From Alphaproteobacteria bacterium (GTDB lineage: Bacteria > Pseudomonadota > Alphaproteobacteria > RF32 > CAG-239), in NCBI GenBank assembly GCA_015062535.1, contig SUUK01000002.1:98724-162723 (forward strand): 64,000 nt of DNA. Direction: 5' to 3'. Position numbers and translations under genes: made by a program. This document shows positions 5,904 to 57,631 of this stretch, piece by piece; positions within the stretch are counted from its first letter, which is position 1, and each line of letters starts with the position of its first letter. The notes beneath the pieces are model-generated. The model worked only from the letters and a program-made list of their open reading frames with translations, did no database searches and was not told the DNA's origin.

Positions 5904-6515
5904 ATGTCAATTATGAGTAAAATCAACGTTTACGTCGTACGCCATGGTCAGACAGATATGAATGTCGCTCAAAAATGGCAAGGCAGTGGTTCAGACTGTT
6001 TATTAAACGAAACAGGAAAAGCGCAAGCTTCTAATTTAGGTGAAACAATTAAGCATAAATATATTCGCAAGTTTTATTGCTCTCCTTTGCTTAGAGCAGT
6101 ACAAACAGCCAATATTGTTGCTGATAAAAATTTCACTTATGCTCCAATAACAATCTTAAAAGATTTAAGAGAGTGTGATTTTGGTGATTTTGAAGGTAAA
6201 CCTTATGATGAGGTTGAAGAAAAGTATGGTGATGAAATTCATGATTTTTTCTGGCCTACAAAGGAAACTTGGGGAAAAAAATTTCCAAATGGTGAAAGCA
6301 AAAAGGAAGTTTTTGAAAGAGTAATTAAGGCTTTGAACTACATTGTTAGTTGCCATAAATTTGATTTAGCGGATGTTGGTGTCGTATGCCATGCCGGAGT
6401 TATAAATGCCCTTGCGTGTGGTTTGGGTTTAACTGATGTTTGTTATGACAACTGCAGTGTTTTGCATTTGGTTTTTGATTATGACAAATGTGAGTTTGTG
6501 CACGTGAAAGATTAA
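5904..6515 (+). CDS. histidine phosphatase (phosphoglycerate mutase) family protein
   Basis: VYVVRHGQTDMN...G catalytic RHG motif; start chosen at ATG 5904 (track ORF begins at upstream TTG 5883). Confidence 0.8.
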   Translation: MSIMSKINVYVVRHGQTDMNVAQKWQGSGSDCLLNETGKAQASNLGETIKHKYIRKFYCSPLLRAVQTANIVADKNFTYAPITILKDLRECDFGDFEGKPYDEVEEKYGDEIHDFFWPTKETWGKKFPNGESKKEVFERVIKALNYIVSCHKFDLADVGVVCHAGVINALACGLGLTDVCYDNCSVLHLVFDYDKCEFVHVKD

Positions 6516-6581
6516 AAAGTTAGACCGCTCCTAAAAGGGGCGGTTTACTTTTTGTTAAATAATAATTTTTATATTTAGAAT

Positions 6582-7214
6582 ATGAAAAATGAGTTGTTGA
6601 AATATAATGAATGTTTTGTCTTGAATGGTTTTGAGGGACAAATAGAAGAAAAAAGTGTTTTTTTATATATTGAAAAATGCTCGAAGGTATGTTTGAGCGC
6701 TCCGCATAGTGTTAAAAGTTTTGCAAATAAAACGATAAAAAAGAGCGATTTGTTTACAGGTGCTTTGGTTAGTTTTGTTGGTGAAAAGTTTGGTTTTTCT
6801 TATATTGTTAGAAATAAATTTGTAGATTATAAATGCAGAATTGATGATTTTGTGTTAGAAAATAAGTTAGATAATCATTATTTTTTGGATATTCATGGTA
6901 TGAAGAATAATGATGATTTTGATTTGGCTGTGGGGCTTGGTTATGAAGGTATTGAAGATTACAGAGCAGAATTAGAAAAAATTGATGAATTAGCTTTAAA
7001 ATTTGGTATTAGGTATATTGTAAATCACCCTTGTTACATGGGTAAAGCGGGATTTACGGGTAAATTTCAGCAAAAAAGCGGTAAAAAAAGTATAATGCAA
7101 TTAGAATGGAGTAAAGATTTTAGAGATTTTAATAAAAAAATTGAGATAGTGGAAGAAAAAACAATACCTTTTTTGGTAGAATTTGCTAGGTATATTAATG
7201 AATTGGTAAAATAG
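6582..7214 (+). CDS. hypothetical protein, weak resemblance to N-formylglutamate amidohydrolase/zinc-hydrolase fold
   Basis: 210 aa; motifs LSAPHS and LDIHGM reminiscent of FGase family; weak. Confidence 0.35.
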   Translation: MKNELLKYNECFVLNGFEGQIEEKSVFLYIEKCSKVCLSAPHSVKSFANKTIKKSDLFTGALVSFVGEKFGFSYIVRNKFVDYKCRIDDFVLENKLDNHYFLDIHGMKNNDDFDLAVGLGYEGIEDYRAELEKIDELALKFGIRYIVNHPCYMGKAGFTGKFQQKSGKKSIMQLEWSKDFRDFNKKIEIVEEKTIPFLVEFARYINELVK

Positions 7215-35668: not shown

Positions 35669-37609
35669 ATGAATAAGATTTTACAACCTAAAGTATCAAT
35701 TGTTGTACCAATTTATGGTGTAGAAAAATATTTACATCAATGCGTTGATAGTATTTTGGCACAAACACTTAAGGATATTGAGATTATTTTAGTAGATAAT
35801 GGGTCAAAGGATAAATGCCCTGAAATTGTAGATGAATATGCTAAAAAAGATAGCAGAATTGTGGCAATACATAAGCCCAATGGTGGTTATGGATCAGCTA
35901 TAAATAAAGGTTTGGATATTGCAAAAGGGGAATATGTTGGGATTGTAGAGTCTGATGACTATATTGATTCTGATATGTATGAAAAATTGTACAATAGAGC
36001 AATTAATACTAAAGCTGATATGGTTAAAGGAAATTTTGATTATGTAAGTGATAAAACTGGTGCTCGTCGTAAAGAAACAATATTAATGCAACTATTTGAA
36101 GAGCAGAAGGGGGTATTCACACTTGCAGATTGCCCTAAAATGATTTATATTTTCGCATCTATTTGGAGTGCAATCTACAAAAAAGATTGGTTAAATAAAC
36201 ATCGGATTAGAGTTGTAGAAGACATAAAACCTTATGAAGATATTCCCTTTTTTACAGAAACCATTTCTAAGGCTGACAAGATAGTATTTGAGCCAGGAGC
36301 GAAATATAATTATAGAATAGATGTTGAAGGAAGTTCTACTAGTACTCTTAAACCAACAATTGTTCACTATTTGTTACAAAAGGGTCGTGTTAGAGAAATA
36401 TTAGCAAAAAATAACATGTATAATGAGGAAATAAAAGAGTACTACTGGAAAAGTGTGTTTGTCGGTTCAAAAGTGTGGTTTTTGAAGAAAAATAACAGAT
36501 ATAAACGAAAATTTTATAAAGAGATGAAGCTCTTGTTCAATAAAGCAACTAAAGATGAAATTACTTTTAAATATTTTACACCTTCAGAGAAGAGAGAATT
36601 CAATAGAATATGTAAAGCTTCGTGTTTTGCCTATATTTTACATCGTAAGGTTAAGCGATTTGGGAAAAATATATATTCAACTAAAAAAACGGCATCTCAC
36701 CGTATTATAAAAGTTTTAGGGATTAAAATTAATATAAAGAATAAAAATAAAAATAAAAAAGATGTTAATTTAGCAGAAATAAAAGAAAAATTAGAGCATA
36801 TTGAAAATTTAATTAGAATTCAAATTAATCCACAAAATTTGCCTAAGGCAAATGGATATATGCGTATTCAACAGACAGCCTCTTTAGCTTTGTTAAATAA
36901 ATTAAAGTTGTTTTTGGAAAAAAATAAATATAGCTATTGGTTAGATTTTGGAACATTATTAGGTGGAGCTAGACATTCAGGTTTTATTCCTTGGGATGAT
37001 GACATAGATATTTCTATGCCAAGAAAAGATTTTGAAAATTTGAAGAAAAATATATCTGATTTTGCATATGGTGATTTTAGTTATAGTATCGGAGATATTA
37101 TTCGTGTTTTTTATAAAAACACTTCAGCTCAAGTAGATATTTTTCCTTATGATACAGGAAATCAAGTTGAAATACCTCAACATTCGGAATATAAAAAAAT
37201 TGTTGAAAAATTAGCAAGTTTGTATAAATGCATTCCGTTTAATTGGTCTAATGTAAGAGTATCTACTATTCCTGAAGATTTTAAAGAAAATTTAGAAAAT
37301 ATATATGTTAATGAAATATTAGAAAATAAGCCAATTGCGGAAAAAGGGTATATGTTTTTAGCTTTTCATTGTTTTGCGTTTAAAAGAGTTTTGTATAGAT
37401 ATGATGATATATTTCCTTTAGGAAAAATAAAATTTGAAGGAGAAGAATATCCTTGCCCTAACAAACTTGATAAATATTTATCGTTATATTGGGGAAATTA
37501 TATGGAGTTACCCAATAATTGTGTTAGCAGACACCCTAATATGATAAGAGCTATGCAGAATTATGAAAATATTATAGATATGTATAATTTGATTGACAGT
37601 GATAAATAA
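35669..37609 (+). CDS. bifunctional GT2 glycosyltransferase / LicD-family phosphotransferase
   Basis: N-terminal VSIVVPIYGVEKYLHQCVDSILAQTLKDIEIILVDNGSKD...VESDD (GT-A DxD); C-terminal WLDFGTLLGGARHSGFIPWDDDIDISMPRKDF (LicD motif). Confidence 0.78.
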   Translation: MNKILQPKVSIVVPIYGVEKYLHQCVDSILAQTLKDIEIILVDNGSKDKCPEIVDEYAKKDSRIVAIHKPNGGYGSAINKGLDIAKGEYVGIVESDDYIDSDMYEKLYNRAINTKADMVKGNFDYVSDKTGARRKETILMQLFEEQKGVFTLADCPKMIYIFASIWSAIYKKDWLNKHRIRVVEDIKPYEDIPFFTETISKADKIVFEPGAKYNYRIDVEGSSTSTLKPTIVHYLLQKGRVREILAKNNMYNEEIKEYYWKSVFVGSKVWFLKKNNRYKRKFYKEMKLLFNKATKDEITFKYFTPSEKREFNRICKASCFAYILHRKVKRFGKNIYSTKKTASHRIIKVLGIKINIKNKNKNKKDVNLAEIKEKLEHIENLIRIQINPQNLPKANGYMRIQQTASLALLNKLKLFLEKNKYSYWLDFGTLLGGARHSGFIPWDDDIDISMPRKDFENLKKNISDFAYGDFSYSIGDIIRVFYKNTSAQVDIFPYDTGNQVEIPQHSEYKKIVEKLASLYKCIPFNWSNVRVSTIPEDFKENLENIYVNEILENKPIAEKGYMFLAFHCFAFKRVLYRYDDIFPLGKIKFEGEEYPCPNKLDKYLSLYWGNYMELPNNCVSRHPNMIRAMQNYENIIDMYNLIDSDK

Positions 37610-37622
37610 TATAGGATTTGTT

Positions 37623-38993
37623 ATGAAAAAAGTGATTACATATGGAACATTTGATTTATTACATCAAGGGCATGTGAATATTTTAAAAAGAGCAAAAGAA
37701 CAGGGCGATTATTTAATTGTTGGAGTTACTAGTGAAAATTATGATGAACAACGTGGCAAATTAAATGTAATGCAGTCTTTGTTTGAACGTATAGAAAATG
37801 TAAAAAAAACAGGTTTGGCTGATCAAATTGTTGTTGAAGAATATATGGGCCAGAAAATCCAAGATATTCAAAAATATGGAGTTGATAAATTTGTTATTGG
37901 CTCTGACTGGCTGGGTAAATTTGATTATTTAAATGAATATTGTGAAGTAATTTATTTAGATAGAACAGTTGGCATTTCTTCAACTGATTTAAGGAATAGT
38001 AAAAATAATATTCTTAGATTGGGGGTTGTAGGAAATGGTCGTATTGCTAAACGATTTGTAAAAGAAGCTAGATTTGTTAGTGGTTTAGAAATAGAATATG
38101 TATTTGGGCGTAATGAGAATAGACTATCCGAATTTTGTAAAGATTATAGTTTAGTTGGATATGATACGGATTATGATGTGTTTTTGGAAAAAGTTGACGC
38201 TGTGTATATAGCTTTACCTCATACACTTCATTATGTATTTGCTAAAGAAGCTTTACTTAAAGGAAAGCATGTATTATGTGAAAAGCCTATAACACTTTCA
38301 CTAGATGAAGCAAAAGAATTATATACTATAGCTAAAGAAAATAATTTAATAATTCAAGAAGCAATTAAGACTGTTTATGCTCCTTGTTTTGCTCGTTTAT
38401 TATCTATGGTAAAAAGCGGTGTTATTGGAAAAATTAAAGATGTTGAGGCTACTTTTACAAAATTAATAAATGACAAAACTCTTCGTGAATATGATTTATT
38501 ATCAGGAGGAGGAAGTTTAACAGAATTAGGTAGCTATCCTCTTTGTTTGATAACCAAAGTATTGGGGACAAGTCCTAAAAAAGTTATATATACAGATTTT
38601 AAAGATAAAGAAACAGGTGTTGATTTAATGAATAAAACAACTTTAATTTATTCAAATGCAATAGCTACGTCAACAGTTGGAATAGGAGTTAAAAAGGAAG
38701 GAAATTGTATTATTTCTGGTACTGAAGGATATATATATATACCAGCACCATGGTGGAAAACTGAATATTTTGAAGTTCGTTTTGAAAATCAATCTAAAAA
38801 TAAAAAGGTCTATGTCGAATTTACTGATGATGGTTTGAGATATGAGATTGCAGACTTTCTTAAGGCTGTAAATACCAAAAAAGAGACTTATAAACTTACT
38901 TTTGATGAAAGTCTATTTATTAGTAGTGTTATAGATGCTTATAAGAATAATGGAGAATTTTCTTTTGAAAAAGAATATATTTGCTTGGAATAA
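37623..38993 (+). CDS. bifunctional cytidylyltransferase (TagD/glycerol-3-phosphate cytidylyltransferase-like) / Gfo-Idh-MocA family oxidoreductase (CDP-alditol synthesis)
   Basis: N-terminal VITYGTFDLLHQGHVNILKRAKEQGDYLIVGVTSE (HxGH cytidylyltransferase); C-terminal LRLGVVGNGRIAKRFVKEA Rossmann + EKP motif of Gfo/Idh/MocA. Confidence 0.72.
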   Translation: MKKVITYGTFDLLHQGHVNILKRAKEQGDYLIVGVTSENYDEQRGKLNVMQSLFERIENVKKTGLADQIVVEEYMGQKIQDIQKYGVDKFVIGSDWLGKFDYLNEYCEVIYLDRTVGISSTDLRNSKNNILRLGVVGNGRIAKRFVKEARFVSGLEIEYVFGRNENRLSEFCKDYSLVGYDTDYDVFLEKVDAVYIALPHTLHYVFAKEALLKGKHVLCEKPITLSLDEAKELYTIAKENNLIIQEAIKTVYAPCFARLLSMVKSGVIGKIKDVEATFTKLINDKTLREYDLLSGGGSLTELGSYPLCLITKVLGTSPKKVIYTDFKDKETGVDLMNKTTLIYSNAIATSTVGIGVKKEGNCIISGTEGYIYIPAPWWKTEYFEVRFENQSKNKKVYVEFTDDGLRYEIADFLKAVNTKKETYKLTFDESLFISSVIDAYKNNGEFSFEKEYICLE

Positions 38994-46294: not shown

Positions 46295-48355
46295 ATGGCA
46301 AATAATGAGTTGCAAATGCCGACGGCAAAAAAATACAAAATGCCGTTTAAAAGTATAACAAAAAGAGATGGGACGTTGGCTGATTTTGATGGTGACAAAA
46401 TTTATAATGCCATTTTAAGAGCTGGTGAAAATACTTTAGAGTTTGGTTCAGATGATGCATGGTTGCTCTGTGCTCAAGTAATGAAGATTTTATCTCATAA
46501 ATTTGATGAATCATTACCATCTGTTGAAGATATTCAAGATATTGTAGAAGAAGTTTTGATTTCTAATAACTATTTCAAAACAGCTAAAGCATATATTTTG
46601 TATCGTGATAAAAGAAATAGAATGAGAGGCGATGGCAAAACTGTTGTTGACGTTGAGAGTTCTATTAATGAATATCTTGAAAATCTTGACTGGAGAATTA
46701 AAGAAAACGCTAACCAAGGTTATTCTAATGGTGGTTTAATCTTAAACGTTTCTGGTAAAGTTACAGCTAACTATTGGCTTTCTCACGTATATCCTCATGA
46801 AGTAGGTGAAGCTCATAGAAATGGTGATATTCATATTCACGATTTGAGCATGCTTGCAGCTTATTGTGCTGGTTGGTCTTTGAAAAACTTGCTTAGAGAA
46901 GGTTTTAATGGCGTTCCAGGAAAGGTTGAAGCTGGTGCTCCTAAACACTTGAGTTCTGCTGTTGGTCAAATGGTTAACTTTATGGGTACTCTTCAAAACG
47001 AATGGGCTGGTGCTCAAGCATTTTCTTCTGTTGATACTTATCTTGCTCCATATGTTAGAAAAGATAAATTAACATACAATCAAGTTGAACAATGTATGCA
47101 AGAACTTATCTACAACTTGAATGTTCCTTCTCGTTGGGGTTCTCAAACACCATTTACAAACTTTACTTTTGACTGGGTTTGCCCAGAAGATTTGAGAGAT
47201 CAAAAACCATATATTGGTGGTGTTGAACAAGATTTCACATATGGTGATTTGGGTGAAGAAATGGCAATGATTAACAAAGCATACATCAATGTTATGATGC
47301 GTGGTGACGTTATGGGTAGACCATTTACATTCCCAATTCCTACATATAACATGACTTGGGATTTTCCTTGGGAAAATGAAAATACAGAATTGTTGTTTGA
47401 AATGACTGCAAAATATGGTTTGCCTTATTTCCAAAACTTCCTCAATTCTTCTTTGAAACCAGGTCATATTCGTTCTATGTGTTGCCGTTTGCAACTTGAC
47501 TTGAGAGAATTGCTTGCTCGTGGTAATGGCTTGTTCGGTAGTGCTGAGCAAACAGGTAGTGTTGGTGTGGTAACAATTAACTGCGCAAGACTTGGTTATA
47601 TTTATAAAGGTAATGAACAAGCATTGTTCCAACGCACAGAAGAATTAATGAATATCGCAAGAACATCTCTTGAGATTAAGAGAAAAGTTATTCAACGTTT
47701 AATCGATAATGGTTTGTTCCCATTCACAAAGAGATATTTGGGAACTTTGAGAAATCACTTCTCTACTATCGGTGTTAACGGTATGAATGAAATGATTAGA
47801 AACTTTACTGATGGTAAGCATGATATCACAGATGCTTTCGGACAAGAATTTGCTGAAAAGTATTTAGATTTTGTTCGTGAAAAATTAGTAAAGATTCAAG
47901 AAGAAACAGGTCATATGTATAATTTGGAAGCAACACCTGCTGAAGGTGCAGCAACTAGATTTGCAAGAGAAGATAAAAAGCGTTTTGTTGGTATTATCCA
48001 AGCAGGTACTCCTGATGCGCCATTCTATACAAACTCTTCTCAATTGCCTGTAGGATATACAGATGATCCATTTGAGGCTCTAGATTTGCAAGCTAAATTG
48101 CAATCTAAATATACAGGTGGAACAGTGCTTCACTTGTTTATGAACCAAAGAATTTCATCTGCAAAAGTTTGTCGTGATTTTGTGAAGAAAGTTTTAGCAA
48201 ACTACAGACTTCCATATATTACGATTACACCAACATTCTCTGTGTGTCCAAAACATGGATATATTGCTGGTGAGCACGAATTCTGTCCAATTTGCGATAA
48301 AGAAAAGAAGGCAGAGAAACTAAAAAAGCTTGCAAATATGCAAAAAGTAGTGTAG
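46295..48355 (+). CDS. nrdD: anaerobic ribonucleoside-triphosphate reductase (class III RNR), lacking the C-terminal glycyl-radical domain
   Basis: 686 aa; N-terminal ATP-cone, conserved core (GSVGVVTINCARLGY), Zn ribbon CPKHGYIAGEHEFCPIC, then stops at TAG 48353-48355 before the glycyl radical motif. Confidence 0.9.
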   Translation: MANNELQMPTAKKYKMPFKSITKRDGTLADFDGDKIYNAILRAGENTLEFGSDDAWLLCAQVMKILSHKFDESLPSVEDIQDIVEEVLISNNYFKTAKAYILYRDKRNRMRGDGKTVVDVESSINEYLENLDWRIKENANQGYSNGGLILNVSGKVTANYWLSHVYPHEVGEAHRNGDIHIHDLSMLAAYCAGWSLKNLLREGFNGVPGKVEAGAPKHLSSAVGQMVNFMGTLQNEWAGAQAFSSVDTYLAPYVRKDKLTYNQVEQCMQELIYNLNVPSRWGSQTPFTNFTFDWVCPEDLRDQKPYIGGVEQDFTYGDLGEEMAMINKAYINVMMRGDVMGRPFTFPIPTYNMTWDFPWENENTELLFEMTAKYGLPYFQNFLNSSLKPGHIRSMCCRLQLDLRELLARGNGLFGSAEQTGSVGVVTINCARLGYIYKGNEQALFQRTEELMNIARTSLEIKRKVIQRLIDNGLFPFTKRYLGTLRNHFSTIGVNGMNEMIRNFTDGKHDITDAFGQEFAEKYLDFVREKLVKIQEETGHMYNLEATPAEGAATRFAREDKKRFVGIIQAGTPDAPFYTNSSQLPVGYTDDPFEALDLQAKLQSKYTGGTVLHLFMNQRISSAKVCRDFVKKVLANYRLPYITITPTFSVCPKHGYIAGEHEFCPICDKEKKAEKLKKLANMQKVV

Positions 48356-48382
48356 AATATTAAGTTAGTGAAAGGGAGAAAC

Positions 48383-48610
48383 ATGAGTAATATTATTAAC
48401 ATAGAAGACGTAATCTTGGACAATTCTGAAAGACAACGTTGCGAGATTTATAGCAGAGTTATGGGCTATATTCGTCCTACTACTGAATACAACGTTGGTA
48501 AATTAGGTGAGTTCAAATCTAGATTATGTTTTTGCGAAGACAAAGCCGTTGAAGGTTGTGAAGTTCGTGAATGCGTTTGCAACGAAACATTGGCTATGGC
48601 TGCAGAATAA
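48383..48610 (+). CDS. NrdD glycyl-radical domain encoded as separate small ORF (in frame with nrdD, after one TAG)
   Basis: ATG 48383 with AAAGGGAG RBS; CEIYSRVMGYIRPTTEYNVGKLGEFKSR = class III RNR glycyl radical signature (RVxGY...N.GK..E...R); same frame as nrdD (48368-46295 divisible by 3). Confidence 0.6.
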   Translation: MSNIINIEDVILDNSERQRCEIYSRVMGYIRPTTEYNVGKLGEFKSRLCFCEDKAVEGCEVRECVCNETLAMAAE

Positions 48611-48651
48611 TAGTAGCGAAGCTTTAGTTTTAAGCTTTAGGTGAGTGGATT

Positions 48652-49353
48652 ATGAATCCTATTAGAATCGGCGGTATTGAGAAATTCAGTATCGTCGATT
48701 TTCCAAATAAAATGGCTGCTGTTGTCTTTATGCAGGGATGTCCATGGTGTTGTCCGTTTTGCCACAATGTGCAATTGCAAGATGTAAGTGGTGAAACTAA
48801 TATTGTTTGGCAAAAATTTATTGATTTTTTAGGAACCAGAAAAGGTGTGCTTGATGCTGTGGTTTTTTCTGGTGGTGAACCTTTGGTGCAAAAAGGTTTA
48901 ATTGATGCTATTAAAGAAGTAAAAGCTTTGGGCTATGAAATAGGACTTCATACAGGTGGGTATAGACCTGAATTTTTTAGAGAAGTAGTTGAGCTTGTAG
49001 ATTGGGTTGGATTTGATATCAAAGCACCTCTAGAAGAAAATAGATATAAGGTTGTTACTGGTGGCATTGCTGATGTAGAAAAAGTAAAAGAAAGCCTTAA
49101 TATTTTAATAGAATCCGGAAAAAGTTTTGAATGCAGGACAACTTGTGACCCGAGATTTTTAAGTATTGATGATTTGTATGAAATTGCGGATACATTAAAG
49201 GGACTTGGTGTTAAAGAATATTATTTGCAAAAATATCGAAAAGTAGAAAGTGATATTGATGCAAGTGAAATAAAAAGCTTAGCTTTGGTTGAAAATGAAC
49301 AATTGAATGAGTATTTGAAAAATTGTTTTGATGTATTTGATGTAAGAAAATAA
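48652..49353 (+). CDS. nrdG: anaerobic ribonucleotide reductase activating protein (radical SAM)
   Basis: 233 aa; FMQGCPWCCPFCHN radical-SAM cluster-binding motif; operonic with nrdD; terminator cacccact/agtgggtg at about 49399..49427. Confidence 0.88.
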   Translation: MNPIRIGGIEKFSIVDFPNKMAAVVFMQGCPWCCPFCHNVQLQDVSGETNIVWQKFIDFLGTRKGVLDAVVFSGGEPLVQKGLIDAIKEVKALGYEIGLHTGGYRPEFFREVVELVDWVGFDIKAPLEENRYKVVTGGIADVEKVKESLNILIESGKSFECRTTCDPRFLSIDDLYEIADTLKGLGVKEYYLQKYRKVESDIDASEIKSLALVENEQLNEYLKNCFDVFDVRK

Positions 49354-50936: not shown

Positions 50937-51787
50937 TGATAGAAAAATTTGAGTTTTTAGGAGAAGATGAAGGAGTTAGCCTTCTTGTATTTGGCTCTGT
51001 ACATGGTAATGAAGTTGCAGGTAAATTTGCCTTAGAACAATTGATAAGTGAAATTAATGACGGAAAAATTGTTATAAAAAAGGGAAAGCTTGTAGTTGTT
51101 CCTGTTTGTAATAAAGAAGCTAGCATAAAAGATGTTCGCCAAATTGATGAAAACTTAAATAGAGTTATGAAAGAATGGGAGAATCCTAATACATATGAAA
51201 AGAAACTTGCAAATGAGCTTGTGGGATTGATTAAAGATTGTGATGTTTTGCTTGATTTGCATTCTACACATTGTAAGGGAGATGAGCCTTTTGTTTTTTG
51301 TGATTATCCAAAAGAAAATAACTTAAAACTTATTGACGTTATTGATGTTAAGTATGTGCTAGAGGGGTGGCCTGATATTTATGCAGGACAATCTGAAATT
51401 GAAGATTTTTCAACTGAAAGAGCTTGTTTTGAGTATGGAAAAAGTGGCACAACTTTGGAATGCGGTTACCATAAAGAGGTTGGAGCTCAAAATGTTGCAT
51501 ATGATGCAGTGGTTAATGCACTAAAAGTTTTTGGTTTAATTGATGGTCAAAAGCCTCAAAGCATATCTAAAACACATATTTTGATGAAGAATTTTGTGAT
51601 TAAAAAGAAAGAAGGCAAATTATTAAAAGAATACAAGCACCTTGATAGAGTTTATAAAGATGAAGTAATTGCAAGATATGATGATGGACAAATCTTGGTT
51701 GCAGAAAATGATGGATATATTCTGCTACCCAATCTTAAATGTGAGATTGGGGCAGAATGGTATTACTTTGGTGTGAAAAAACTATAA
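50936..51787 (+). CDS. succinylglutamate desuccinylase/aspartoacylase (AstE/AspA) family zinc hydrolase
   Basis: LLVFGSVHGNEVAG (HxxE zinc site) and LLDLHSTH second His block. Confidence 0.7.
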   Translation: MIEKFEFLGEDEGVSLLVFGSVHGNEVAGKFALEQLISEINDGKIVIKKGKLVVVPVCNKEASIKDVRQIDENLNRVMKEWENPNTYEKKLANELVGLIKDCDVLLDLHSTHCKGDEPFVFCDYPKENNLKLIDVIDVKYVLEGWPDIYAGQSEIEDFSTERACFEYGKSGTTLECGYHKEVGAQNVAYDAVVNALKVFGLIDGQKPQSISKTHILMKNFVIKKKEGKLLKEYKHLDRVYKDEVIARYDDGQILVAENDGYILLPNLKCEIGAEWYYFGVKKL

Positions 51788-52573
51788 AGTACCGGTTTTA
51801 GATAATCTTTCTAATTTTTTATATTCAAGAGGATTAAAGAGCATTGATTTTGTTTTTTCATTTGGTTCTTTTTGCCAGATGAGAGATTTTGTTTCTTTGT
51901 TTAAGCTAATACCCTTATAGCCGGTTTTTATGAGATGTTGCATTTTCATAAATAAACTTGGAATTTTTTTATGAATATTATCGCCTAGAAGCATGCTATA
52001 TGTTGTAGAGTTTTCTTGAATAAACTTAGTGTATGGTGTTTGTTTTTTATTTATTTCTTTTTCTAGGTAGATAACTTTTACACCATCTGTTGGATCTTGG
52101 TCAACTTTAGTTATTTGCATACCATGATGAAGAGCATTTATCCAACTTGCAGGGTTGTCTATAGCAATTTGGATTATAGAATGAGTTCTTTTGCTATCTA
52201 TCTCATTTTTTTCGATATATTCTAGCATTTTTTTCATAAGGCTAGAGCCTCTATATTCTGGGTCAACAAGGATTGCCTCAAAAATAACGAGTTCTTCATT
52301 TGGGGTGCTTGATTTAAATTCTGGCATATCTCTTTGTTCATTATTTTCTGGTAAACAATAAACGATTTGAGCAATTAATAAATCTTCATCAAAAACACCT
52401 AACATGTGTGATGTTTTACCATTTAGTGATTTCATATAATCACGTTCGGTTCTGTGCAATATAAAATGTTGTTCATCTGGGTTTAGGCCTGCAATAATTC
52501 TATCTTGCAAGCTCATAACATCTTTTAAATTACTTCCATTAAGTTTTTTTACTGTTAAATGTTTTTTATTCAT
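51782..52573 (-). CDS. hypothetical protein with GNAT acetyltransferase-like N-terminal domain
   Basis: 263 aa; FEAILVDPEYRGSSLMKKMLEYI resembles GNAT motif A. Confidence 0.45.
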   Translation of the reverse strand: MNKKHLTVKKLNGSNLKDVMSLQDRIIAGLNPDEQHFILHRTERDYMKSLNGKTSHMLGVFDEDLLIAQIVYCLPENNEQRDMPEFKSSTPNEELVIFEAILVDPEYRGSSLMKKMLEYIEKNEIDSKRTHSIIQIAIDNPASWINALHHGMQITKVDQDPTDGVKVIYLEKEINKKQTPYTKFIQENSTTYSMLLGDNIHKKIPSLFMKMQHLIKTGYKGISLNKETKSLIWQKEPNEKTKSMLFNPLEYKKLERLSKTGTL

Positions 52574-52843
52574 ATTTCTCTCTTTTAAGTTATTTTAGGT
52601 TATAAAAAAAGATTTGAGTTGAGCTCAAACCTTGCGACTGCTTATCAATAGGGTAGATGATAAGTCATCGTCGCATGTAAAGTCTTCTTAAGCGAAGAGA
52701 AATATGTTTAATAAATATTGTCATAGTATCTCTAAATTTGTTAACTGGACGTATTTGTAGCTTATTTAAGGTTTTTTGTCAATAATTTTTTTGGAATATA
52801 TTTAAAAAAGTAAAAGGTAGCTATAAAATAGCTACCTTTTGTG

Positions 52844-53974
52844 TTAGACATTAAGGTTTCGGATTTCTTCCTTGATGTTTTTGCGGGCTTGTTTTTCAAA
52901 CAGATCATAGAAGAAGTCTGTTTGGAAAATTCTATCTCGCTTTAAAATCTTTTGGAAGAACTCAAGACGACCTTTCGCAAATTCGCTGTCTGAAAGGTGA
53001 GAATACTCACGCCTGATGTTTTGGCAGTAAGTGTTCCATGTTTTAGGGTTAAATGTTCCCAAAATGCTTAAGTCCAAATCTGCGATAAGGGCTTTGTCGT
53101 CAGTTAGGTCATCATTGTTGTGAGTTGTTGCCATAATTAACTCTTCTAGGTATTGGCTAGATTTATAATAGCGTTTACCTATCCAGCTAATTACGGACTT
53201 AATCGACCGGGCTTCGTTGTCATTTCGGGTTACATTATACACATAGTCATGTCCGAAGATGGATATCTCAAACTCTGCTGAAGATGAGGTTTTTGTCTGT
53301 GTTTGGTATATATCAAGCATGTTGAACATATAACCAAGGTGTGACATGTTGTGGTATGGTCTGATTTTGTAAGCTTGTGTCAGTTCTCTCCAATTCATGT
53401 AGGCGGTGCTTTGGCTACTATCGAAGAATAGTTTGGTAAAGCGAGGTTCAAGAAAAATGCACATGAGCTCGTTGTGAACATTTTCTGGAACAAGGCTTGC
53501 TGCTGCAATATATTCACCAAGGTAGCAAAGGTCTTTTACGAGTGTAGAGGAAATTGACGCAAGATTGTCATCAGTGATTGTAATGAATATGGTTTCAAGA
53601 TTGAAACCTCTTATGCTAGCAAGATTTTGGTTGGTTTTTGCCATAATCTTTTCTTGCTTTAAGTCATTACTGTTTTGACGGATGCCACGGATGAGTGTTG
53701 TTACGTTGTGTTTTTTCGCAAAATCAACAGTAAGCCCTTTGTTGATGGCTACTTCGATTTTGTGCTTCAACGGATGGTTTTTGAACGCATCTTCAATCAT
53801 TTCCTTTCTTGTTTCGGCAGAAAAAAGAGATTTTTTCTGATTGTTTTGGCTAACGCATATGATAAGTTTATCTAGCGTTACATCATCTCCATATTTATGG
53901 GAGAGAGCTTGATTAATGACACTGATGTGCCCTAACGTAATCGGATCAAATGATCCGCAGAACATTGCATTCAT
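52844..53974 (-). CDS. coaD: phosphopantetheine adenylyltransferase fused to a C-terminal HD-domain-like phosphohydrolase region
   Basis: N-terminal 175 aa align with CoaD (CGSFDPITLGHISVI; TTLIRGIRQNSNDLKQE; LVPENVHNELM vs E. coli FLPENVHQALM); extra about 200 aa with YHNMSH...FGHDYVY...D motifs; terminator ggtagctat/atagctacc at about 52816..52841. Confidence 0.72.
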   Translation of the reverse strand: MNAMFCGSFDPITLGHISVINQALSHKYGDDVTLDKLIICVSQNNQKKSLFSAETRKEMIEDAFKNHPLKHKIEVAINKGLTVDFAKKHNVTTLIRGIRQNSNDLKQEKIMAKTNQNLASIRGFNLETIFITITDDNLASISSTLVKDLCYLGEYIAAASLVPENVHNELMCIFLEPRFTKLFFDSSQSTAYMNWRELTQAYKIRPYHNMSHLGYMFNMLDIYQTQTKTSSSAEFEISIFGHDYVYNVTRNDNEARSIKSVISWIGKRYYKSSQYLEELIMATTHNNDDLTDDKALIADLDLSILGTFNPKTWNTYCQNIRREYSHLSDSEFAKGRLEFFQKILKRDRIFQTDFFYDLFEKQARKNIKEEIRNLNV

Positions 53975-54125
53975 AATTAAACATAAATATTTTTGTTAAT
54001 AATAATTACTTAGTGATGTGGAATATAGGTAAAAAGATGTTTTTTGTCAAGAAATAAATAAAAGAGGCAAAGTTTGCTTTACCTCTTTTGGCTTATGCTA
54101 CATATCTTATTAGTATAAAGTCTTC

Positions 54126-54579: not shown

Positions 54580-55263
54580 ATGCTAGGTAGAATTTTTGAT
54601 TTTTTGTTAGAATTGATTAAGTGGCCTATGGCTATTTTGGCTGTTGTGGCATTGCCTTCTTTAATTAATGCGTTTGATTATTTTAGTATGGCAAATATGA
54701 GATTTTTTGCATTTTTGGGTGGGGCATTTGTGTATTTGGCTCTAAAAATCGTAGCATCTGCTAGAACAAATGTCTCTATGCAAATTTTGGCTCATGAATT
54801 TACGCATATATTTTTTGCCTTGATTACATTTCATAAGGTTGTACATATCCATCTTAATATGGATGAAAGCGGTGGCGCAATGGGATTTAAAGGGAAAGGT
54901 AATTGGCTGATTGTGGTTTCGCCTTATTTCTTTCCGTTGTGTTTGTTCTTTTTGATATTGGGAGTTACGTTTTTTTCTGAAAGTATGCCTGAAGGGTATT
55001 GGCTTAATGGGATATTAGGGTACTTTTTTGCATATCACGTTGCTAGTATGGTTGTGCAGATACATGGTGACCAACCTGATTTTAAAGAAGCTGGATTTTT
55101 GTTTTGTTTGTTATTTTTGCCTGCTGCTAATATATTTTCTTGTTCAATGATTTTGGCTTTTAATAATGGTGGATTTTTACATATGCAAAAGTATGTAGAA
55201 ATTATTTATAAACTACTATTAAAAGATATTTCTTTTTGTTTTGATTATATTACCAACTTATAG
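54580..55263 (+). CDS. integral membrane protein with intramembrane HExxH (M50/site-2-protease-like)
   Basis: 227 aa, 5-6 TM; ILAHEFTHIFFAL motif within hydrophobic segment. Confidence 0.4.
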   Translation: MLGRIFDFLLELIKWPMAILAVVALPSLINAFDYFSMANMRFFAFLGGAFVYLALKIVASARTNVSMQILAHEFTHIFFALITFHKVVHIHLNMDESGGAMGFKGKGNWLIVVSPYFFPLCLFFLILGVTFFSESMPEGYWLNGILGYFFAYHVASMVVQIHGDQPDFKEAGFLFCLLFLPAANIFSCSMILAFNNGGFLHMQKYVEIIYKLLLKDISFCFDYITNL

Positions 55264-56137
55264 AACATTCTTTTGATGAAGATTTGATTGTTACATCAAC
55301 ACCTAATGGTAAGATGTGTCTTGATGGGATATGACCATGCTGAAAATCTGTAATCACTGGAATTGTGAGGTCTTTTACAAAGTCTTTTATACAATCTTCA
55401 ATAGTTCCATCTTCTTTGTCAATTATAATGCAATCAGTAAATTTGCCAAAAACAATTCCTTTTAGTTTATTAAAGTTTTTTTGTTGTTTTAGTTGGTTTA
55501 GCATTAAATCTACTTTGTAGGTTTTTTCGTCGGTATCTTCTAGCAAAAGGATTTTATCTTTTAGGTCTGGAAAATATGGAGTGCCACATAGATATAGAAG
55601 TGTGCTTAAACATCCTCCAATCATTGTACCAGAAGCTGTACCTTTGATGAATGATGTTCCCGATTTTATGAAATGTGTATCATCAAATAGCGCAGATTTA
55701 AGTGATTTTGATACAAGAGAATCTATTTTGTTATTTTTTAAATCATATAGTGGTAAAAAACCTGTAAGTGATGGGTTTTTTGTTTTAGCTATAAGAGCAT
55801 TCTGTAATGCAGTAGAATCGCTTAGGCCTATAATGGGTTTAGGGTTGTTTTTTATTTGTTTATAATCAAGAAAATCAAGAGTTCTTGTTGAGCCGGCGGC
55901 TCCTCTGATGCAAAATAGGGCTTTTATTTCTTTGGCTTTAAACATATCGTTGATTGAAGATGCTCTTTTTTGGTCAGTTCCTGCCATGTAGCGGTATTCT
56001 TCGTTTAGGTTTGGGGCTAAAACTACGTCTAAACCTAATTTTTTGAAATAATCTAGAGCAAAAGTTAGGTCTTTGTTTTGCTGGCTTGCTGATGGAGCTA
56101 TAAAGCCTACTTTGTCACCTTTTTTTAGTATTGCCAT
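55250..56137 (-). CDS. ldcA: LD-carboxypeptidase (peptidase S66)
   Basis: 295 aa; N-terminal KKGDKVGFIAPSA and overall S66 layout; adjacent to mpl. Confidence 0.8.
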   Translation of the reverse strand: MAILKKGDKVGFIAPSASQQNKDLTFALDYFKKLGLDVVLAPNLNEEYRYMAGTDQKRASSINDMFKAKEIKALFCIRGAAGSTRTLDFLDYKQIKNNPKPIIGLSDSTALQNALIAKTKNPSLTGFLPLYDLKNNKIDSLVSKSLKSALFDDTHFIKSGTSFIKGTASGTMIGGCLSTLLYLCGTPYFPDLKDKILLLEDTDEKTYKVDLMLNQLKQQKNFNKLKGIVFGKFTDCIIIDKEDGTIEDCIKDFVKDLTIPVITDFQHGHIPSRHILPLGVDVTIKSSSKECSISW

Positions 56138-57501
56138 TATAATTTCTCCAATATTTCATATCCCATATCGGTTATAGTGTTATCTCTTGCGCCCATTAAA
56201 ACTATTCTATCGTTTGGTTTGGCATTTTTTAAGATATATTCTTTTATTTCATCTCGTTTTTCAAAAAATAGCGCATTTGCATTAAGTGTTTTAGCATAGT
56301 CTACGAGGTCTTTTGATGAGATGTCTCTTTTTACTGTTCCTCCGGCAAAGAATATTTCTGGAATTAGCAATATGTCGTCTTTTAGCATATGGTTTGCAAA
56401 GCTTTCCATAATTTGTTTGCCCATCATACGCATTGGTGAGAAACCATGTGGCTGGAACATTATGATTAAACGACCTTCGTAATTTCTAAGTGCAGACATT
56501 GACGCAGATACTTTATCTGGATTGTGCGCAAAATCATCAATTACGGTAATGGCTTTTGTTTGACCAAGTATTTCTAGACGGCGTTTTGTGCCTAAAAATG
56601 TTTCTAAAATTTTGCATGAAGTATCTGGATTAATTCCAAGAAGAGAACAACAAGCAACTGCACACATAGCATTTGCTACATTAAATTTACCAATAAGGTT
56701 TAATTTGTATTGGGTTGAATTATGTGTGTAAAGCGTGCCATTTGGTATAGCTTTTATGTTTGATGCATAAAAATCTGCAGAAGAATCTTTGATGCTAAAT
56801 GAGACAATGTTTTTGTTTGATGATGCTAAAACTGATGAGTTTTCGCAATCTTTGTTGTATACTGCACCAAATTTTGCTTTTTTAGCGAAGTCTTTGAATA
56901 AGGCTTGCAATTCTTTAATTGATTTGTGGTCTAAGGTAATATTATTTATAACAGAGATATAAGGAGTATATTTTTCTATTGAGCCGTCGCTTTCATCTGC
57001 TTCGATAATGCAGTAATCTCCATTGTTTAAGATAACATTTGGAATGCCTTTAGTGTTTTCATAGTTTTTTAGAAGAGCACCATTTATAACAAGTGGGTTT
57101 TTAGATGCTTTATCTAAAATGTATCCAATCATGGCGGTTAGGGTTGATTTGCCACTTGTTCCACCTACTGCAATATTGTATGGGTATGAAGAAAAAATTT
57201 CTTCTAATAAGTCTGAGCGGTGCTTTATAGGAATGTTTAATTCTTTGGCTCTTTTTATATCTGGAATCGTATCTTCTACGGCGGTTGATGCATATAGTAC
57301 AGATGTATTTTCATCAAGCATTGAGCCATCTTGAGGATAGATTTTTATGCCGATATCAGTTAGTTTTTTTCTAATTTTTTCTTCTTTGTTTTGGTCAAAA
57401 CTTCTGTCAGAGCCTACAATATCGTTATTTTTATATTTCAATACTTGTGCTAGAGCACTCATACCACTACCTGCGATTGCGCAAAAACCTATTTTAGCCA
57501 T
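56137..57501 (-). CDS. mpl: UDP-N-acetylmuramate:L-alanyl-gamma-D-glutamyl-meso-DAP ligase (murein peptide ligase; MurC-family)
   Basis: MAKIGFCAIAGSGMSALAQVL N-terminal Rossmann, central GTSGKSTLTAM P-loop; start set at MAKIG Met (57501); operonic with ldcA. Confidence 0.68.
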   Translation of the reverse strand: MAKIGFCAIAGSGMSALAQVLKYKNNDIVGSDRSFDQNKEEKIRKKLTDIGIKIYPQDGSMLDENTSVLYASTAVEDTIPDIKRAKELNIPIKHRSDLLEEIFSSYPYNIAVGGTSGKSTLTAMIGYILDKASKNPLVINGALLKNYENTKGIPNVILNNGDYCIIEADESDGSIEKYTPYISVINNITLDHKSIKELQALFKDFAKKAKFGAVYNKDCENSSVLASSNKNIVSFSIKDSSADFYASNIKAIPNGTLYTHNSTQYKLNLIGKFNVANAMCAVACCSLLGINPDTSCKILETFLGTKRRLEILGQTKAITVIDDFAHNPDKVSASMSALRNYEGRLIIMFQPHGFSPMRMMGKQIMESFANHMLKDDILLIPEIFFAGGTVKRDISSKDLVDYAKTLNANALFFEKRDEIKEYILKNAKPNDRIVLMGARDNTITDMGYEILEKL

Positions 57502-57631
57502 TATGTTACCCTTGATGTTGTTCTTGTTTGGTAAAATATAGTATAAAATAGTTAAATTTTTTATAAAAAAACTTGAACACTGTTCAATATTGTTATAGAT
57601 TGTAAAAAAATACACAACGTTAGGTGATGAT

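What the first reader, a model, noticed from the sequence alone, without database searches (positions are those of the whole stretch)
52844..53974. CoaD (PPAT) with about 200-aa C-terminal HD-like extension
The first 175 aa are a full phosphopantetheine adenylyltransferase, including the C-terminal LVPENVHNELM block. The ORF then continues for about 200 aa containing YHNMSH, FGHDYVY and downstream Asp residues, which suggest an HD-type metal-dependent phosphohydrolase. A PPAT::HD fusion would couple CoA synthesis to a hydrolytic step such as a dephospho-CoA or acyl carrier phosphodiesterase, or it may have a regulatory role.
Basis: partly seen in the sequence, partly recalled or inferred. Interest (0 to 1): 0.55.

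Follow-up and report, generated by a model that had tools for sequence, protein, structure and literature searches.

The report
CoaD fused to uncharacterised HD hydrolase
This gene joins the coenzyme A-building enzyme CoaD to a metal-dependent hydrolase of unknown function, and the same pairing recurs independently in other microbes, which gives the first functional clue for a very large unstudied enzyme family.

Summary
A single 376-aa ORF lies at 52844-53974 on the minus strand. Residues 1-172 are a complete phosphopantetheine adenylyltransferase: TIGR01510 scores 124 bits against a cut-off of 103, the catalytic motifs are intact, and the fold matches solved PPATs.

Residues about 176-376 hit no Pfam or NCBIfam model. 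They are homologous to a very large family of roughly 208-aa stand-alone proteins labelled only "predicted metal-dependent HD superfamily phosphohydrolase", with at least 19,000 clusters at 50% identity. The H...HD...D residues are conserved. The model is all-helical (pLDDT 93), and its nearest solved folds are cyclic-nucleotide phosphodiesterases, with which it shares the YH-x3-H...HD layout.

It is not a frameshift artefact. The identical protein occurs on 23 or more contigs, and about 50 fusion clusters exist, mostly in uncultured gut Alphaproteobacteria.

The same HD family is also found as HD-CoaD, as CoaD-CoaE-HD triple fusions (41 clusters; Spirochaetales and DPANN archaea), and as a separate gene overlapping coaDE by 4 bp (three contigs). 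HD-domain identities indicate several independent fusions.

The substrate is unknown. My best guess is a diphosphatase acting on dephospho-CoA/CoA-type dinucleotides for proofreading or 4'-phosphopantetheine recycling, as NadD-YqeK does for NAD. It is not a member of the AcpH or YqeK families.

The parts
52844..53974 (-). Complete coaD::HD fusion ORF (376 aa plus stop codon)
   Evidence: ORF list. Full-length homologues at 39-97% identity. AF2 full-length model with pLDDT 93.7, pTM 0.91 and no disordered linker.
53459..53974 (-). CoaD / phosphopantetheine adenylyltransferase domain (aa 1-172)
   Evidence: TIGR01510 scores 124 bits against a cut-off of 103.3, covering aa 3-170. PF01467 E=8.6e-16. 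Foldseek matches PPAT crystal structures with TMt 0.85-0.92, rmsd about 2 A and 25-35% identity. G7 S8 F9 P11 T13 G15 H16 and S142 are invariant; K47, R96, R99 and S143 are conserved in at least 90% of 31 fusions.
53927..53938 (-). T-x-G-H nucleotidyltransferase signature (TLGH, aa 13-16)
   Evidence: T13, G15 and H16 are invariant in alignment A2.
52847..53449 (-). HD-superfamily hydrolase domain (aa 176-376) of the 'predicted metal-dependent HD superfamily phosphohydrolase' family, which has no Pfam model
   Evidence: No Pfam, NCBIfam or PDB sequence hit. Homologous to stand-alone proteins of about 208 aa. The family holds 19,186 clusters at 50% identity. AF2 model with pLDDT 92.7, all-alpha. 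Foldseek best matches are PDE10/5/9.
53339..53356 (-). YHNMSH (aa 207-212): first metal/acid motif, laid out as YH-x3-H like class I phosphodiesterases
   Evidence: H208 and H212 are invariant in the fusions, and the matching H33/H37 are nearly invariant in the family. The PDE4D sequence 'YHNNIH...IHDVDH' was verified against 5k32_A.
53237..53257 (-). FGHDYVY (aa 240-246): the HD dyad H242-D243
   Evidence: H67/D68 are invariant in A1. In A2, H242 is invariant and D243 is conserved in at least 90%.
53057..53080 (-). DLDLSILG (aa 299-306): the distal Asp motif of the HD domain
   Evidence: D126-L-S-I-L-G is invariant in A1. D299, D301 and L302 are invariant in A2.
54022..54050 (-). Promoter-like site upstream of the gene (TTGACA-17-TATATT, 11 of 12 matches)
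   Evidence: Consensus scan. This is a pattern match only.
52812..52840 (-). Terminator-like hairpin followed by a T-run, 4 nt after the stop codon
   Evidence: Consensus scan: 13-bp stem; 4 sites found against 0.7 expected.

Best explanation
The gene encodes one rigid two-domain enzyme. The N-terminal domain is an active phosphopantetheine adenylyltransferase (4'-phosphopantetheine + ATP -> dephospho-CoA + PPi). This rests on homology, conserved catalytic residues and fold. The C-terminal domain is a catalytically competent, phosphodiesterase-like HD metal hydrolase from a very large uncharacterised family. Homology, conserved metal ligands and fold are shown; activity is inferred. This HD family has been joined to the last two CoA-synthesis enzymes repeatedly and independently, so its substrate is most likely a CoA-pathway nucleotide. 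My committed guess is inferred by analogy and not shown. I propose that the domain cleaves the pyrophosphate bond of dephospho-CoA/CoA-type dinucleotides, yielding 4'-phosphopantetheine plus a nucleotide. The substrates could be analogues mis-made from the wrong NTP, damaged CoA, or surplus CoA. CoaD (and CoaE) could then rebuild CoA from the released 4'-phosphopantetheine. That would be a proofreading or recycling loop comparable to NadD-YqeK in NAD synthesis, and it would be especially valuable to reduced-genome organisms that cannot make 4'-phosphopantetheine themselves. The confidence of 0.4 refers to this substrate-level mechanism. The domain-level statement (bifunctional CoaD plus HD hydrolase linked to CoA metabolism) I hold at about 0.9.
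For: CoaD domain.

HD domain: family homology, invariant H/HD/D residues plus four invariant Arg, and a high-confidence all-alpha model whose best solved matches are PDE catalytic domains. The YH-x3-H...HD layout is shared with PDE4D.

Rigid coupling: full-length pTM 0.91 with no low-confidence linker.

Recurrent association with CoA enzymes:
- 50 CoaD-HD clusters, 41 CoaD-CoaE-HD clusters and 1 HD-CoaD in the census (sequences).
- The HD-CoaD gene is followed directly by coaE.
- A stand-alone HD gene overlaps the 3' end of a coaD-coaE fusion gene by 4 bp on three unrelated contigs.

Independent origins: the HD domains of P0048, P0053, P0110, P0255, P0332 and P0047 lie outside the two main fusion clades, and their nearest relatives are stand-alone HDs at 40-50% identity.

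Precedent: the HD-domain protein YqeK fused to NadD hydrolyses NaAD analogues mis-made by that adenylyltransferase (PMC9426524). From general knowledge, NadD and CoaD belong to the same HxGH nucleotidyltransferase superfamily.

Triple fusions and operons occur in genomes labelled Woese-, Aenigm- and other DPANN archaea. From general knowledge, archaea lack acyl carrier protein. This favours a nucleotide or CoA substrate over holo-ACP.
Against: No activity has been measured for any member of the family, and nothing in the sequence identifies the substrate.

Stand-alone members, which are the great majority, show no clustering with coaD or coaE. There were 0 such neighbours in 22 loci within 6 kb, and three other neighbourhoods were uninformative. 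The family may therefore have a broader nucleotide substrate.

In the gut alphaproteobacterial loci no other CoA gene lies within 6 kb.

Hydrolysing the product of the fused enzyme looks futile unless the domain is selective for wrong or damaged species.

The PDE-like general-acid His would fit a true phosphodiester substrate equally well.

The fold matches to PDEs are modest (E about 6e-3, TMq 0.55-0.65, 11-16% identity).

I could not inspect model coordinates, so active-site geometry and the relative placement of the two active sites were not examined.
Confidence: 0.4

Rival explanations
1. The HD domain is a ribose 2'/3'-phosphate esterase or 2',3'-cyclic phosphodiesterase acting on CoA. 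It would remove the 3'-phosphate (CoA -> dephospho-CoA, for homeostasis), or repair iso-CoA (the 2'-phosphate isomer) or 2',3'-cyclic forms to dephospho-CoA, which CoaE then re-phosphorylates correctly.
For: In triple fusions and operons the HD sits directly after CoaE. The domain has a PDE-like fold and a YH-x3-H general-acid layout. HD domains with 2',3'-phosphoesterase activity exist, for example HD-Pnk as described in PMC6097658.
Against: The constant fusion partner is CoaD, not CoaE: 50 CoaD-HD and 1 HD-CoaD clusters have no CoaE in the same protein, and no CoaE-HD fusion lacking CoaD was seen in the census. None of the longer family members I inspected carries a kinase domain.
Confidence: 0.17
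2. The HD domain is a functional analogue of AcpH. It would be a phosphodiesterase that strips 4'-phosphopantetheine from holo-acyl carrier proteins and hands it to the fused CoaD for re-use.
For: The product of that reaction is exactly CoaD's substrate. From general knowledge, E. coli AcpH is itself a non-canonical HD-family enzyme. The PDE-like active-site layout suits a true phosphodiester. The window organism is a bacterium and should have ACP.
Against: No similarity to AcpH: there is no PF04336 hit at E<=1, and hhalign of the family profile against E. coli AcpH gives probability 0.2%. The same HD family is fused or operon-linked to CoaD-CoaE in DPANN archaea, which by general knowledge lack ACP and type II fatty-acid synthesis.
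Confidence: 0.1
3. The HD domain is a general nucleotide-pool or signalling hydrolase (Ap4A, NTP/dNTP, pAp, alarmones). Its fusion to CoaD would then reflect only loose co-regulation or removal of an adenylyltransferase side product.
For: Most family members are stand-alone and show no CoA gene context. Other fusion partners exist: ankyrin repeats, DUF7079 and an unknown 240-aa N-terminal domain. YqeK is also an Ap4A hydrolase (PMC9426524).
Against: Several independent fusions and three overlapping-gene operons, all with the same two consecutive CoA enzymes, are hard to explain without a pathway link.
Confidence: 0.15
4. The HD domain is a phosphomonoesterase for 4'-phosphopantetheine or its oxidised or damaged forms. 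This would be damage pre-emption like the DUF89 phosphatase domain of PANK4, preventing CoaD from making defective CoA.
For: There is precedent for a phosphatase domain fused to a CoA-pathway enzyme (Huang et al. 2016, listed as reference 31 of PMC9426524; the details come from my general knowledge). The domain shares a substrate pool with CoaD.
Against: There is no sequence or fold relation to DUF89. The four invariant Arg and the PDE-like site suggest a larger, multiply phosphorylated nucleotide ligand. This argument is weak.
Confidence: 0.07
5. The C-terminal domain is non-catalytic: a CoA- or nucleotide-binding regulatory or oligomerisation module.
For: PPAT is known to be feedback-regulated by CoA (general knowledge). 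A few fusion relatives have altered motifs: P0041 has HG instead of HD, and L032 has TWRH in the CoaD motif.
Against: The metal ligands H208, H212, H242, D299 and D301 are invariant in 31 diverse fusions and D243 is nearly so. The matching residues are invariant or nearly so in stand-alone members.
Confidence: 0.05
6. Artefact: two adjacent genes (coaD and an HD gene) merged by a sequencing or assembly frameshift.
For: Separate but overlapping coaDE and HD genes do exist in other lineages.
Against: The identical 376-aa product was found on 23 or more contigs from different samples. About 50 clusters and about 30 species-level genomes carry the same continuous ORF. The model shows continuous helices across the junction with high confidence.
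Confidence: 0.01

Closest known systems
NadD-YqeK fusion (nicotinate-mononucleotide adenylyltransferase + HD-domain diphosphatase; Mycoplasma and other Firmicutes)
   Same: Both have an HxGH-type adenylyltransferase of cofactor synthesis fused N-terminally to an HD-superfamily hydrolase. Both pairs also occur as neighbouring genes in other lineages. The YqeK domain was shown to hydrolyse dinucleotide products and analogues of its partner (PMC9426524).
   Different: The transferase differs (CoaD rather than NadD). The HD family also differs: there is no TIGR00488/YqeK hit and no Pfam HD hit, and the nearest folds are PDEs, not YqeK structures. No biochemistry exists for the CoaD-linked family.
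Stand-alone 'predicted metal-dependent HD superfamily phosphohydrolase' family (JGI/COG name; sometimes mislabelled 'N-methyl-D-aspartate receptor NMDAR2C subunit'; probably InterPro IPR009218)
   Same: The C-terminal domain is a full-length member. It is 27-37% identical to them across about 200 aa and shares the same invariant residues.
   Different: Here the domain is covalently joined to CoaD. The gut-alphaproteobacterial fusion forms its own clade of HD domains.
Bacterial CoaD (PPAT) as a stand-alone hexameric enzyme of about 160 aa
   Same: The N-terminal 172 aa match the equivalog model, the catalytic motifs and the fold.
   Different: It carries a 200-aa C-terminal domain packed against it with no flexible linker. 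Whether the usual hexamer can still form is unknown.
Class I cyclic-nucleotide phosphodiesterase catalytic domain (PDE4/5/9/10)
   Same: These are the best solved structural matches. They share the YH-x3-H ... HD ... D arrangement of general-acid and metal-binding residues.
   Different: Identity is only 11-16% and TMq 0.55-0.65. The PDE domains are about 120 aa larger. There is no Pfam PDEase_I hit. Nothing indicates a cyclic-nucleotide substrate.
AcpH (acyl carrier protein phosphodiesterase, PF04336)
   Same: It is an HD-related hydrolase (general knowledge) whose product, 4'-phosphopantetheine, is CoaD's substrate.
   Different: There is no detectable sequence relationship.

Membership tests
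CoaD / phosphopantetheine adenylyltransferase (TIGR01510, PF01467) | Scores above the curated equivalog cut-off over the whole domain | tested here: met
   124 bits against a cut-off of 103.3, aa 3-170 on model positions 2-151 of 155. PF01467 scores 58.8 bits against 21.
CoaD / phosphopantetheine adenylyltransferase (TIGR01510, PF01467) | Catalytic and substrate-binding motifs: (T/H)xGH, the conserved Lys after strand 2, RGxR, and ISS(S/T) | tested here: met
   GSFDPITLGH 7-16, K46/K47, LIRGIR 94-99 and ISSTLVK 141-147 are present and invariant or at least 90% conserved in 31 fusions. Mapping onto E. coli H18/K42/R88/R91/S129 is from my own knowledge.
CoaD / phosphopantetheine adenylyltransferase (TIGR01510, PF01467) | PPAT fold | tested here: met
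   Foldseek top 50 hits are all PPAT crystal structures, with TMt 0.79-0.92 and rmsd 1.6-2.5 A.
CoaD / phosphopantetheine adenylyltransferase (TIGR01510, PF01467) | PPAT enzymatic activity, or complementation of a coaD mutant | not testable with these tools
   Needs an experiment.
HD superfamily of metal-dependent phosphohydrolases (PF01966 clan) | Conserved H ... HD ... D metal-binding residues | tested here: met
   In the fusions H208, H212, H242, D299 and D301 are invariant and D243 is at least 90% conserved. In the stand-alone family H67, D68 and D126 are invariant and H33/H37 nearly so.
HD superfamily of metal-dependent phosphohydrolases (PF01966 clan) | Match to the Pfam HD profile | tested here: not met
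   No hit at E<=1 for this protein. The relative P0110 gives a sub-threshold hit of 19.5 bits against a cut-off of 22, E=1.2e-3. The family profile hits the HD protein BH2835 (3dto) only at E=0.25, but the alignment places its H and HD residues against those of the family profile.
HD superfamily of metal-dependent phosphohydrolases (PF01966 clan) | All-alpha HD/PDEase fold | tested here: met
'Predicted metal-dependent HD superfamily phosphohydrolase' family (stand-alone proteins of about 208 aa) | End-to-end homology with the named stand-alone members and the family-specific invariant residues (R-x-YH-x3-H, HD-x2-Y, NE-x2-S, T-x-H, DLSILG, R-x-EY, AR-x-N) | tested here: met
   E-values range from 6e-27 to 3e-9 for stand-alone proteins covering the C-terminal half. 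The alignment shows 21 invariant columns. The profile finds 19,186 clusters. Source names appear. Identity with InterPro IPR009218 / COG4339 is my recollection plus PMC11898892; it was not tested.
AcpH, acyl carrier protein phosphodiesterase (PF04336) | Sequence or profile similarity to AcpH | tested here: not met
   No Pfam hit at E<=1. hhalign of A1 against E. coli AcpH gives probability 0.2%.
YqeK (COG1713 / TIGR00488) HD diphosphatase | Match to the YqeK model | tested here: not met
   No NCBIfam hit at E<=1 for the C-terminal 198 aa. The resemblance is architectural only.
Class I cyclic-nucleotide phosphodiesterase (PF00233) | Match to the PDEase_I profile, or a full PDE catalytic domain | tested here: not met
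   No Pfam hit. The domain is about 200 aa, whereas the matched PDE chains are 277-336 residues long. Only the motif layout and the core fold are shared.
HD domain of HD-Pnk (2',3'-phosphoesterase; Runella slithyformis) | Sequence similarity to the HD-Pnk N-terminal domain, or fusion to a P-loop polynucleotide kinase | not tested
   The sequence and paper were not obtainable. None of the longer family members examined has a kinase domain.

The most novel reading that the evidence does not exclude
The whole 'predicted HD superfamily phosphohydrolase' family, at least 19,000 clusters at 50% identity across bacteria, CPR, DPANN archaea and some eukaryotes, is a missing enzyme of CoA maintenance. 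It would be a hydrolase that proofreads, repairs or recycles CoA-type dinucleotides and returns 4'-phosphopantetheine to CoaD/CoaE. The CoaD-HD, HD-CoaD and CoaD-CoaE-HD fusions and the coaDE|HD operons would be the Rosetta stone that reveals it.
Probability: 0.4. Interest if true: 0.72.

Novelty: new variant of a known kind. Interest (0 to 1): 0.55.

Why it matters
CoA turnover and repair in prokaryotes is poorly mapped. AcpH and Nudix CoA diphosphatases cover only some lineages. Here a very large hydrolase family, with no Pfam model and no meaningful name, is tied by several independent gene fusions and overlapping-gene operons to the last two steps of CoA synthesis.

That yields a concrete hypothesis that can be tested cheaply, and a short substrate list for a family present in tens of thousands of genomes. 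It also extends the idea of an adenylyltransferase paired with an HD proofreading hydrolase from NAD to CoA.

The link is most prominent in reduced-genome organisms (gut Alphaproteobacteria MAGs, DPANN archaea). These probably depend on salvaged 4'-phosphopantetheine, so the enzyme could matter for how such symbionts keep their CoA pool functional.

Tried and rejected
- Pfam, NCBIfam and PDB sequence searches with the C-terminal 198 aa returned nothing. The profile search against PDB sequences returned only BH2835 at E=0.25.
- The AcpH hypothesis was tested by profile comparison and rejected as a family assignment.
- I looked for functional hints in the gene neighbourhoods of stand-alone members. 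Leptospira and two metagenomic contigs were uninformative. Twenty-two genome loci had no coaD or coaE within 6 kb.
- I looked for coaE or a second coaD in the window and within 6 kb of 30 fusion loci. None was found. Synteny there reflects only vertical inheritance (12 of 30 loci).
- The contexts of two triple fusions were uninformative.
- Literature searches for COG4339, PPAT plus HD fusion, coaD plus HD domain, and dephospho-CoA plus HD domain found no description of this fusion or family function. The HD-Pnk paper could not be opened.
- Model coordinates are not exposed to scripts. Active-site geometry and the distance between the two active sites could not be measured.
- The frameshift/two-gene artefact was considered and rejected.
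Full report
**Observation**

The window carries a continuous 376-codon ORF at 52844..53974 on the minus strand.

The gene appears to be its own transcription unit. The upstream gene ends in a terminator-like hairpin (54089-54060). A TTGACA-17-TATATT promoter-like site follows (54050-54022). A 13-bp hairpin with a T-run sits 4 nt after the stop codon (52840-52812). These are pattern matches only.

The window is 32% G+C and the gene is 38.5%.

**N-terminal domain**

Residues 3-170 match the CoaD equivalog model TIGR01510 at 124 bits, against a cut-off of 103.3, and PF01467. In an alignment of 31 diverse fusion proteins, G7, S8, F9, P11, T13, G15, H16 and S142 are invariant; K47, R96, R99 and S143 are conserved in at least 90%.

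A full-length AlphaFold model (pLDDT 93.7, pTM 0.91) superposes on PPAT crystal structures from Thermotoga, Mycobacterium, E. coli and Pseudomonas, among others, with TMt 0.85-0.92. This is a complete and presumably active PPAT. No second coaD and no coaE lie in the window.

**C-terminal domain**

The last 198 aa hit nothing in Pfam, NCBIfam or PDB sequences. A database search nevertheless shows that they are homologous end to end with stand-alone proteins of about 208 aa. Sources call these "predicted metal-dependent HD superfamily phosphohydrolase", "HD domain-containing protein", or, spuriously, "N-methyl-D-aspartate receptor NMDAR2C subunit".

A profile of 17 members finds 19,186 clusters at 50% identity (7,120 at E<=1e-30), nearly all 200-215 aa. 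So this is a very large family with no functional name.

The invariant columns include the classic HD signature. In full-length numbering these are H208/H212, H242-D243 and D299. The family also has its own markers: R205, Y207, N253-E254, S257, T283-x-H285, DLSILG, R321-x-E323-Y324, R336 and R364-x-N366.

The domain model (pLDDT 92.7) has nine helices. Its best solved structural matches are the catalytic domains of PDE10, PDE5, PDE9 and PDE8, with probability 1.00, E about 6e-3 and TMq 0.54-0.65. These belong to the HD superfamily.

The YH-x3-H ... HD layout equals the metal and general-acid motif of class I PDEs. I verified the PDE4D sequence YHNNIH...IHDVDH against 5k32_A.

Weaker links point the same way. 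The family profile aligns its H and HD motifs with the HD protein BH2835 (3dto, E=0.25). A relative, P0110, gives a sub-threshold Pfam HD hit (19.5 bits).

This is, however, a distinct family without a Pfam model, and no close structure has been solved.

**Is the fusion real, and how widespread is it?**

The identical protein was called on 23 or more contigs. Full-length relatives form about 48 clusters at 39-97% identity. About 30 species-level genomes carry it, almost all of them uncultured Alphaproteobacteria from animal and human guts. The model shows continuous, confident helices across the domain junction and a pTM of 0.91, which indicates a rigid two-domain body rather than beads on a string. 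A frameshift artefact is excluded.

This HD family is joined to CoA enzymes in several other ways.

- P0047 has the reverse order, HD-CoaD, and is followed immediately by coaE.
- P0048, P0053 and P0110 are CoaD-HD fusions with different CoaD and HD lineages.
- P0061 is a CoaD-CoaE-HD triple fusion. A search with it found at least 41 such clusters (568-611 aa, 41-82% identity). They come from genomes labelled Spirochaetales, Clostridiales, and Woese-, Aenigm- and other archaea. The search also found 79 CoaD-CoaE two-domain clusters.
- On three unrelated contigs the coaD-coaE gene is followed, with a 4-bp overlap, by a stand-alone HD gene. For L063, hhalign gives probability 100% and E 1.9e-48. 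L064 and L065 show the same arrangement, and L065 lies beside archaeal MCM and Cbf5-like genes.

A neighbour-joining tree and pairwise identities of 268 HD domains place the gut-alphaproteobacterial fusions in one clade of 47, sister to a Leptospira stand-alone protein. Thirty-nine triple fusions fall in another clade. P0047, P0048, P0053, P0110, P0255, P0332 and the operon HD fall elsewhere, nearest to stand-alone HDs at 40-51% identity. The tree is crude, but it indicates several independent fusion events. That is the classical signature of a pathway-level functional link.

**Limits of that link**

Stand-alone members, the great majority, show no coaD or coaE nearby: 0 of 22 loci within 6 kb, and three other neighbourhoods were uninformative. 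Other fusion partners also exist: ankyrin repeats, DUF7079 and an unknown 240-aa N-terminal domain. In the gut Alphaproteobacteria no other CoA gene lies within 6 kb. The neighbourhood conserved in 12 of 30 genomes reflects shared ancestry. It comprises a Mur-ligase/LdcA-like pair, an M50B-like protein and a weak GNAT-like protein.

**Mechanism**

Three things are shown: an intact PPAT domain, an HD-superfamily domain with all metal ligands conserved and a PDE-like layout, and recurrent covalent or translationally coupled association with CoaD and CoaE. The following is inferred: the HD domain acts on a CoA-pathway nucleotide.

I commit to a diphosphatase role. The domain would cleave the pyrophosphate of dephospho-CoA/CoA-type dinucleotides (mis-made, damaged or surplus) to give 4'-phosphopantetheine plus a nucleotide, so that CoaD and CoaE can rebuild correct CoA.

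Three arguments support this. The first is the NadD-YqeK precedent, where an HD domain fused to the homologous adenylyltransferase hydrolyses NaAD analogues made from wrong NTPs (PMC9426524). The second is that CoaD is the constant partner. The third is the prevalence in reduced-genome organisms, for which 4'-phosphopantetheine is likely a scarce salvaged commodity. I put about 0.4 on this.

The rivals are:
- a 2'/3'-phosphate or cyclic-phosphate esterase on CoA, covering CoA 3'-dephosphorylation or iso-CoA repair, favoured by the position after CoaE (0.17);
- a general nucleotide hydrolase (0.15);
- an AcpH-like phosphopantetheine-releasing phosphodiesterase (0.10);
- a 4'-phosphopantetheine phosphatase like the PANK4 domain (0.07);
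- a non-catalytic module (0.05).

The AcpH idea is attractive on chemistry. It fails as a family assignment: there is no PF04336 hit, and hhalign gives probability 0.2% against E. coli AcpH. It also fits poorly with the archaeal fusions, because archaea generally lack ACP (general knowledge).

**Comparison with what is known**

Architecturally the closest known system is NadD-YqeK. This protein is not a YqeK family member. In sequence, the C-terminal domain belongs to the unnamed stand-alone HD family. In fold, its nearest solved relatives are class I PDEs, of which it is not a member.

I found no paper describing a CoaD-HD fusion or a function for this family. One paper notes in passing that an InterPro "HD phosphohydrolase" (IPR009218) protein is labelled phosphopantetheine adenylyltransferase in PANTHER (PMC11898892). 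That suggests databases have absorbed the fusion without interpreting it. NCBI names the fusion simply "pantetheine-phosphate adenylyltransferase".

**Verdict**

The feature is a real, conserved bifunctional gene. It is a new variant of the "cofactor adenylyltransferase plus HD hydrolase" theme. Its main value is as a Rosetta-stone clue to the function of a very large uncharacterised HD family. Interest is moderate (0.55): the genomic link is solid, the substrate is unknown, and it can be tested directly.

Noticed in passing
L063:6001-7772; L064:2874-4612; L065:2529-4252: In three unrelated metagenomic or MAG contigs a bacterial-type coaD-coaE fusion gene is followed by a stand-alone HD-family gene that overlaps it by 4 bp. 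L065 is archaeal by its neighbours (MCM with intein, Cbf5-like). Seventy-nine CoaD-CoaE two-domain clusters, many labelled DPANN archaea, turned up in the same search.
   Followed up: partly
window 37593-38993 (+): A 466-aa ORF combines an N-terminal cytidylyltransferase-like domain (PF01467, E 1.9e-18) with a GFO/IDH/MocA oxidoreductase. This is another nucleotidyltransferase fusion in the same window, and its function was not examined.
   Followed up: no
window 51782-52573 (-): A 263-aa ORF lies directly downstream on the same strand, separated by terminator-like hairpins. It has only weak sub-threshold GNAT acetyltransferase hits (E 0.005-0.03). It sits next to the fusion in 12 of 30 related genomes. 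A GNAT would use acetyl-CoA, but no functional link was shown.
   Followed up: partly
window 46295-49353 (+): Anaerobic ribonucleotide reductase NrdD (ATP-cone + NRDD) and its activase NrdG (TIGR02495, 198 bits) are present. This is consistent with an anaerobic gut lifestyle for this alphaproteobacterium.
   Followed up: no
window 55250-57615 (-): An LdcA-like muramoyltetrapeptide carboxypeptidase (Peptidase_S66) lies next to a MurC/Mpl-like ligase that scores below the murC equivalog cut-off (294.6 against 335). This looks like a peptidoglycan-recycling pair.
   Followed up: no
P0054, P0062, P0065-P0076, P0224 (proteins of about 440 aa): A recurrent architecture has the HD family domain preceded by a conserved N-terminal region of about 240 aa with no Pfam match. 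Other partners are ankyrin repeats (P0184) and DUF7079 (P0122).
   Followed up: no
P0041, P0016 (alignment A2); L032:5929-7200: A few fusion relatives have altered catalytic motifs. P0041 has HG instead of HD. P0016 has MWAH in place of RGIR and an altered ISS motif in the CoaD part. The 'Muribaculaceae'-binned L032 protein has TWRH instead of TxGH. One domain may be decaying in some lineages.
   Followed up: no
L049:5998-6629: In Winogradskyella eckloniae the stand-alone HD gene is split into two overlapping ORFs (5998-6330 and 6312-6629), each matching half of the profile. This is a probable frameshift or pseudogene.
   Followed up: no
window 52844-53974 versus the whole window: The fusion gene is 38.5% G+C and the window as a whole is 32%. 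I did not examine whether this is just the usual difference between coding and non-coding sequence.
   Followed up: no
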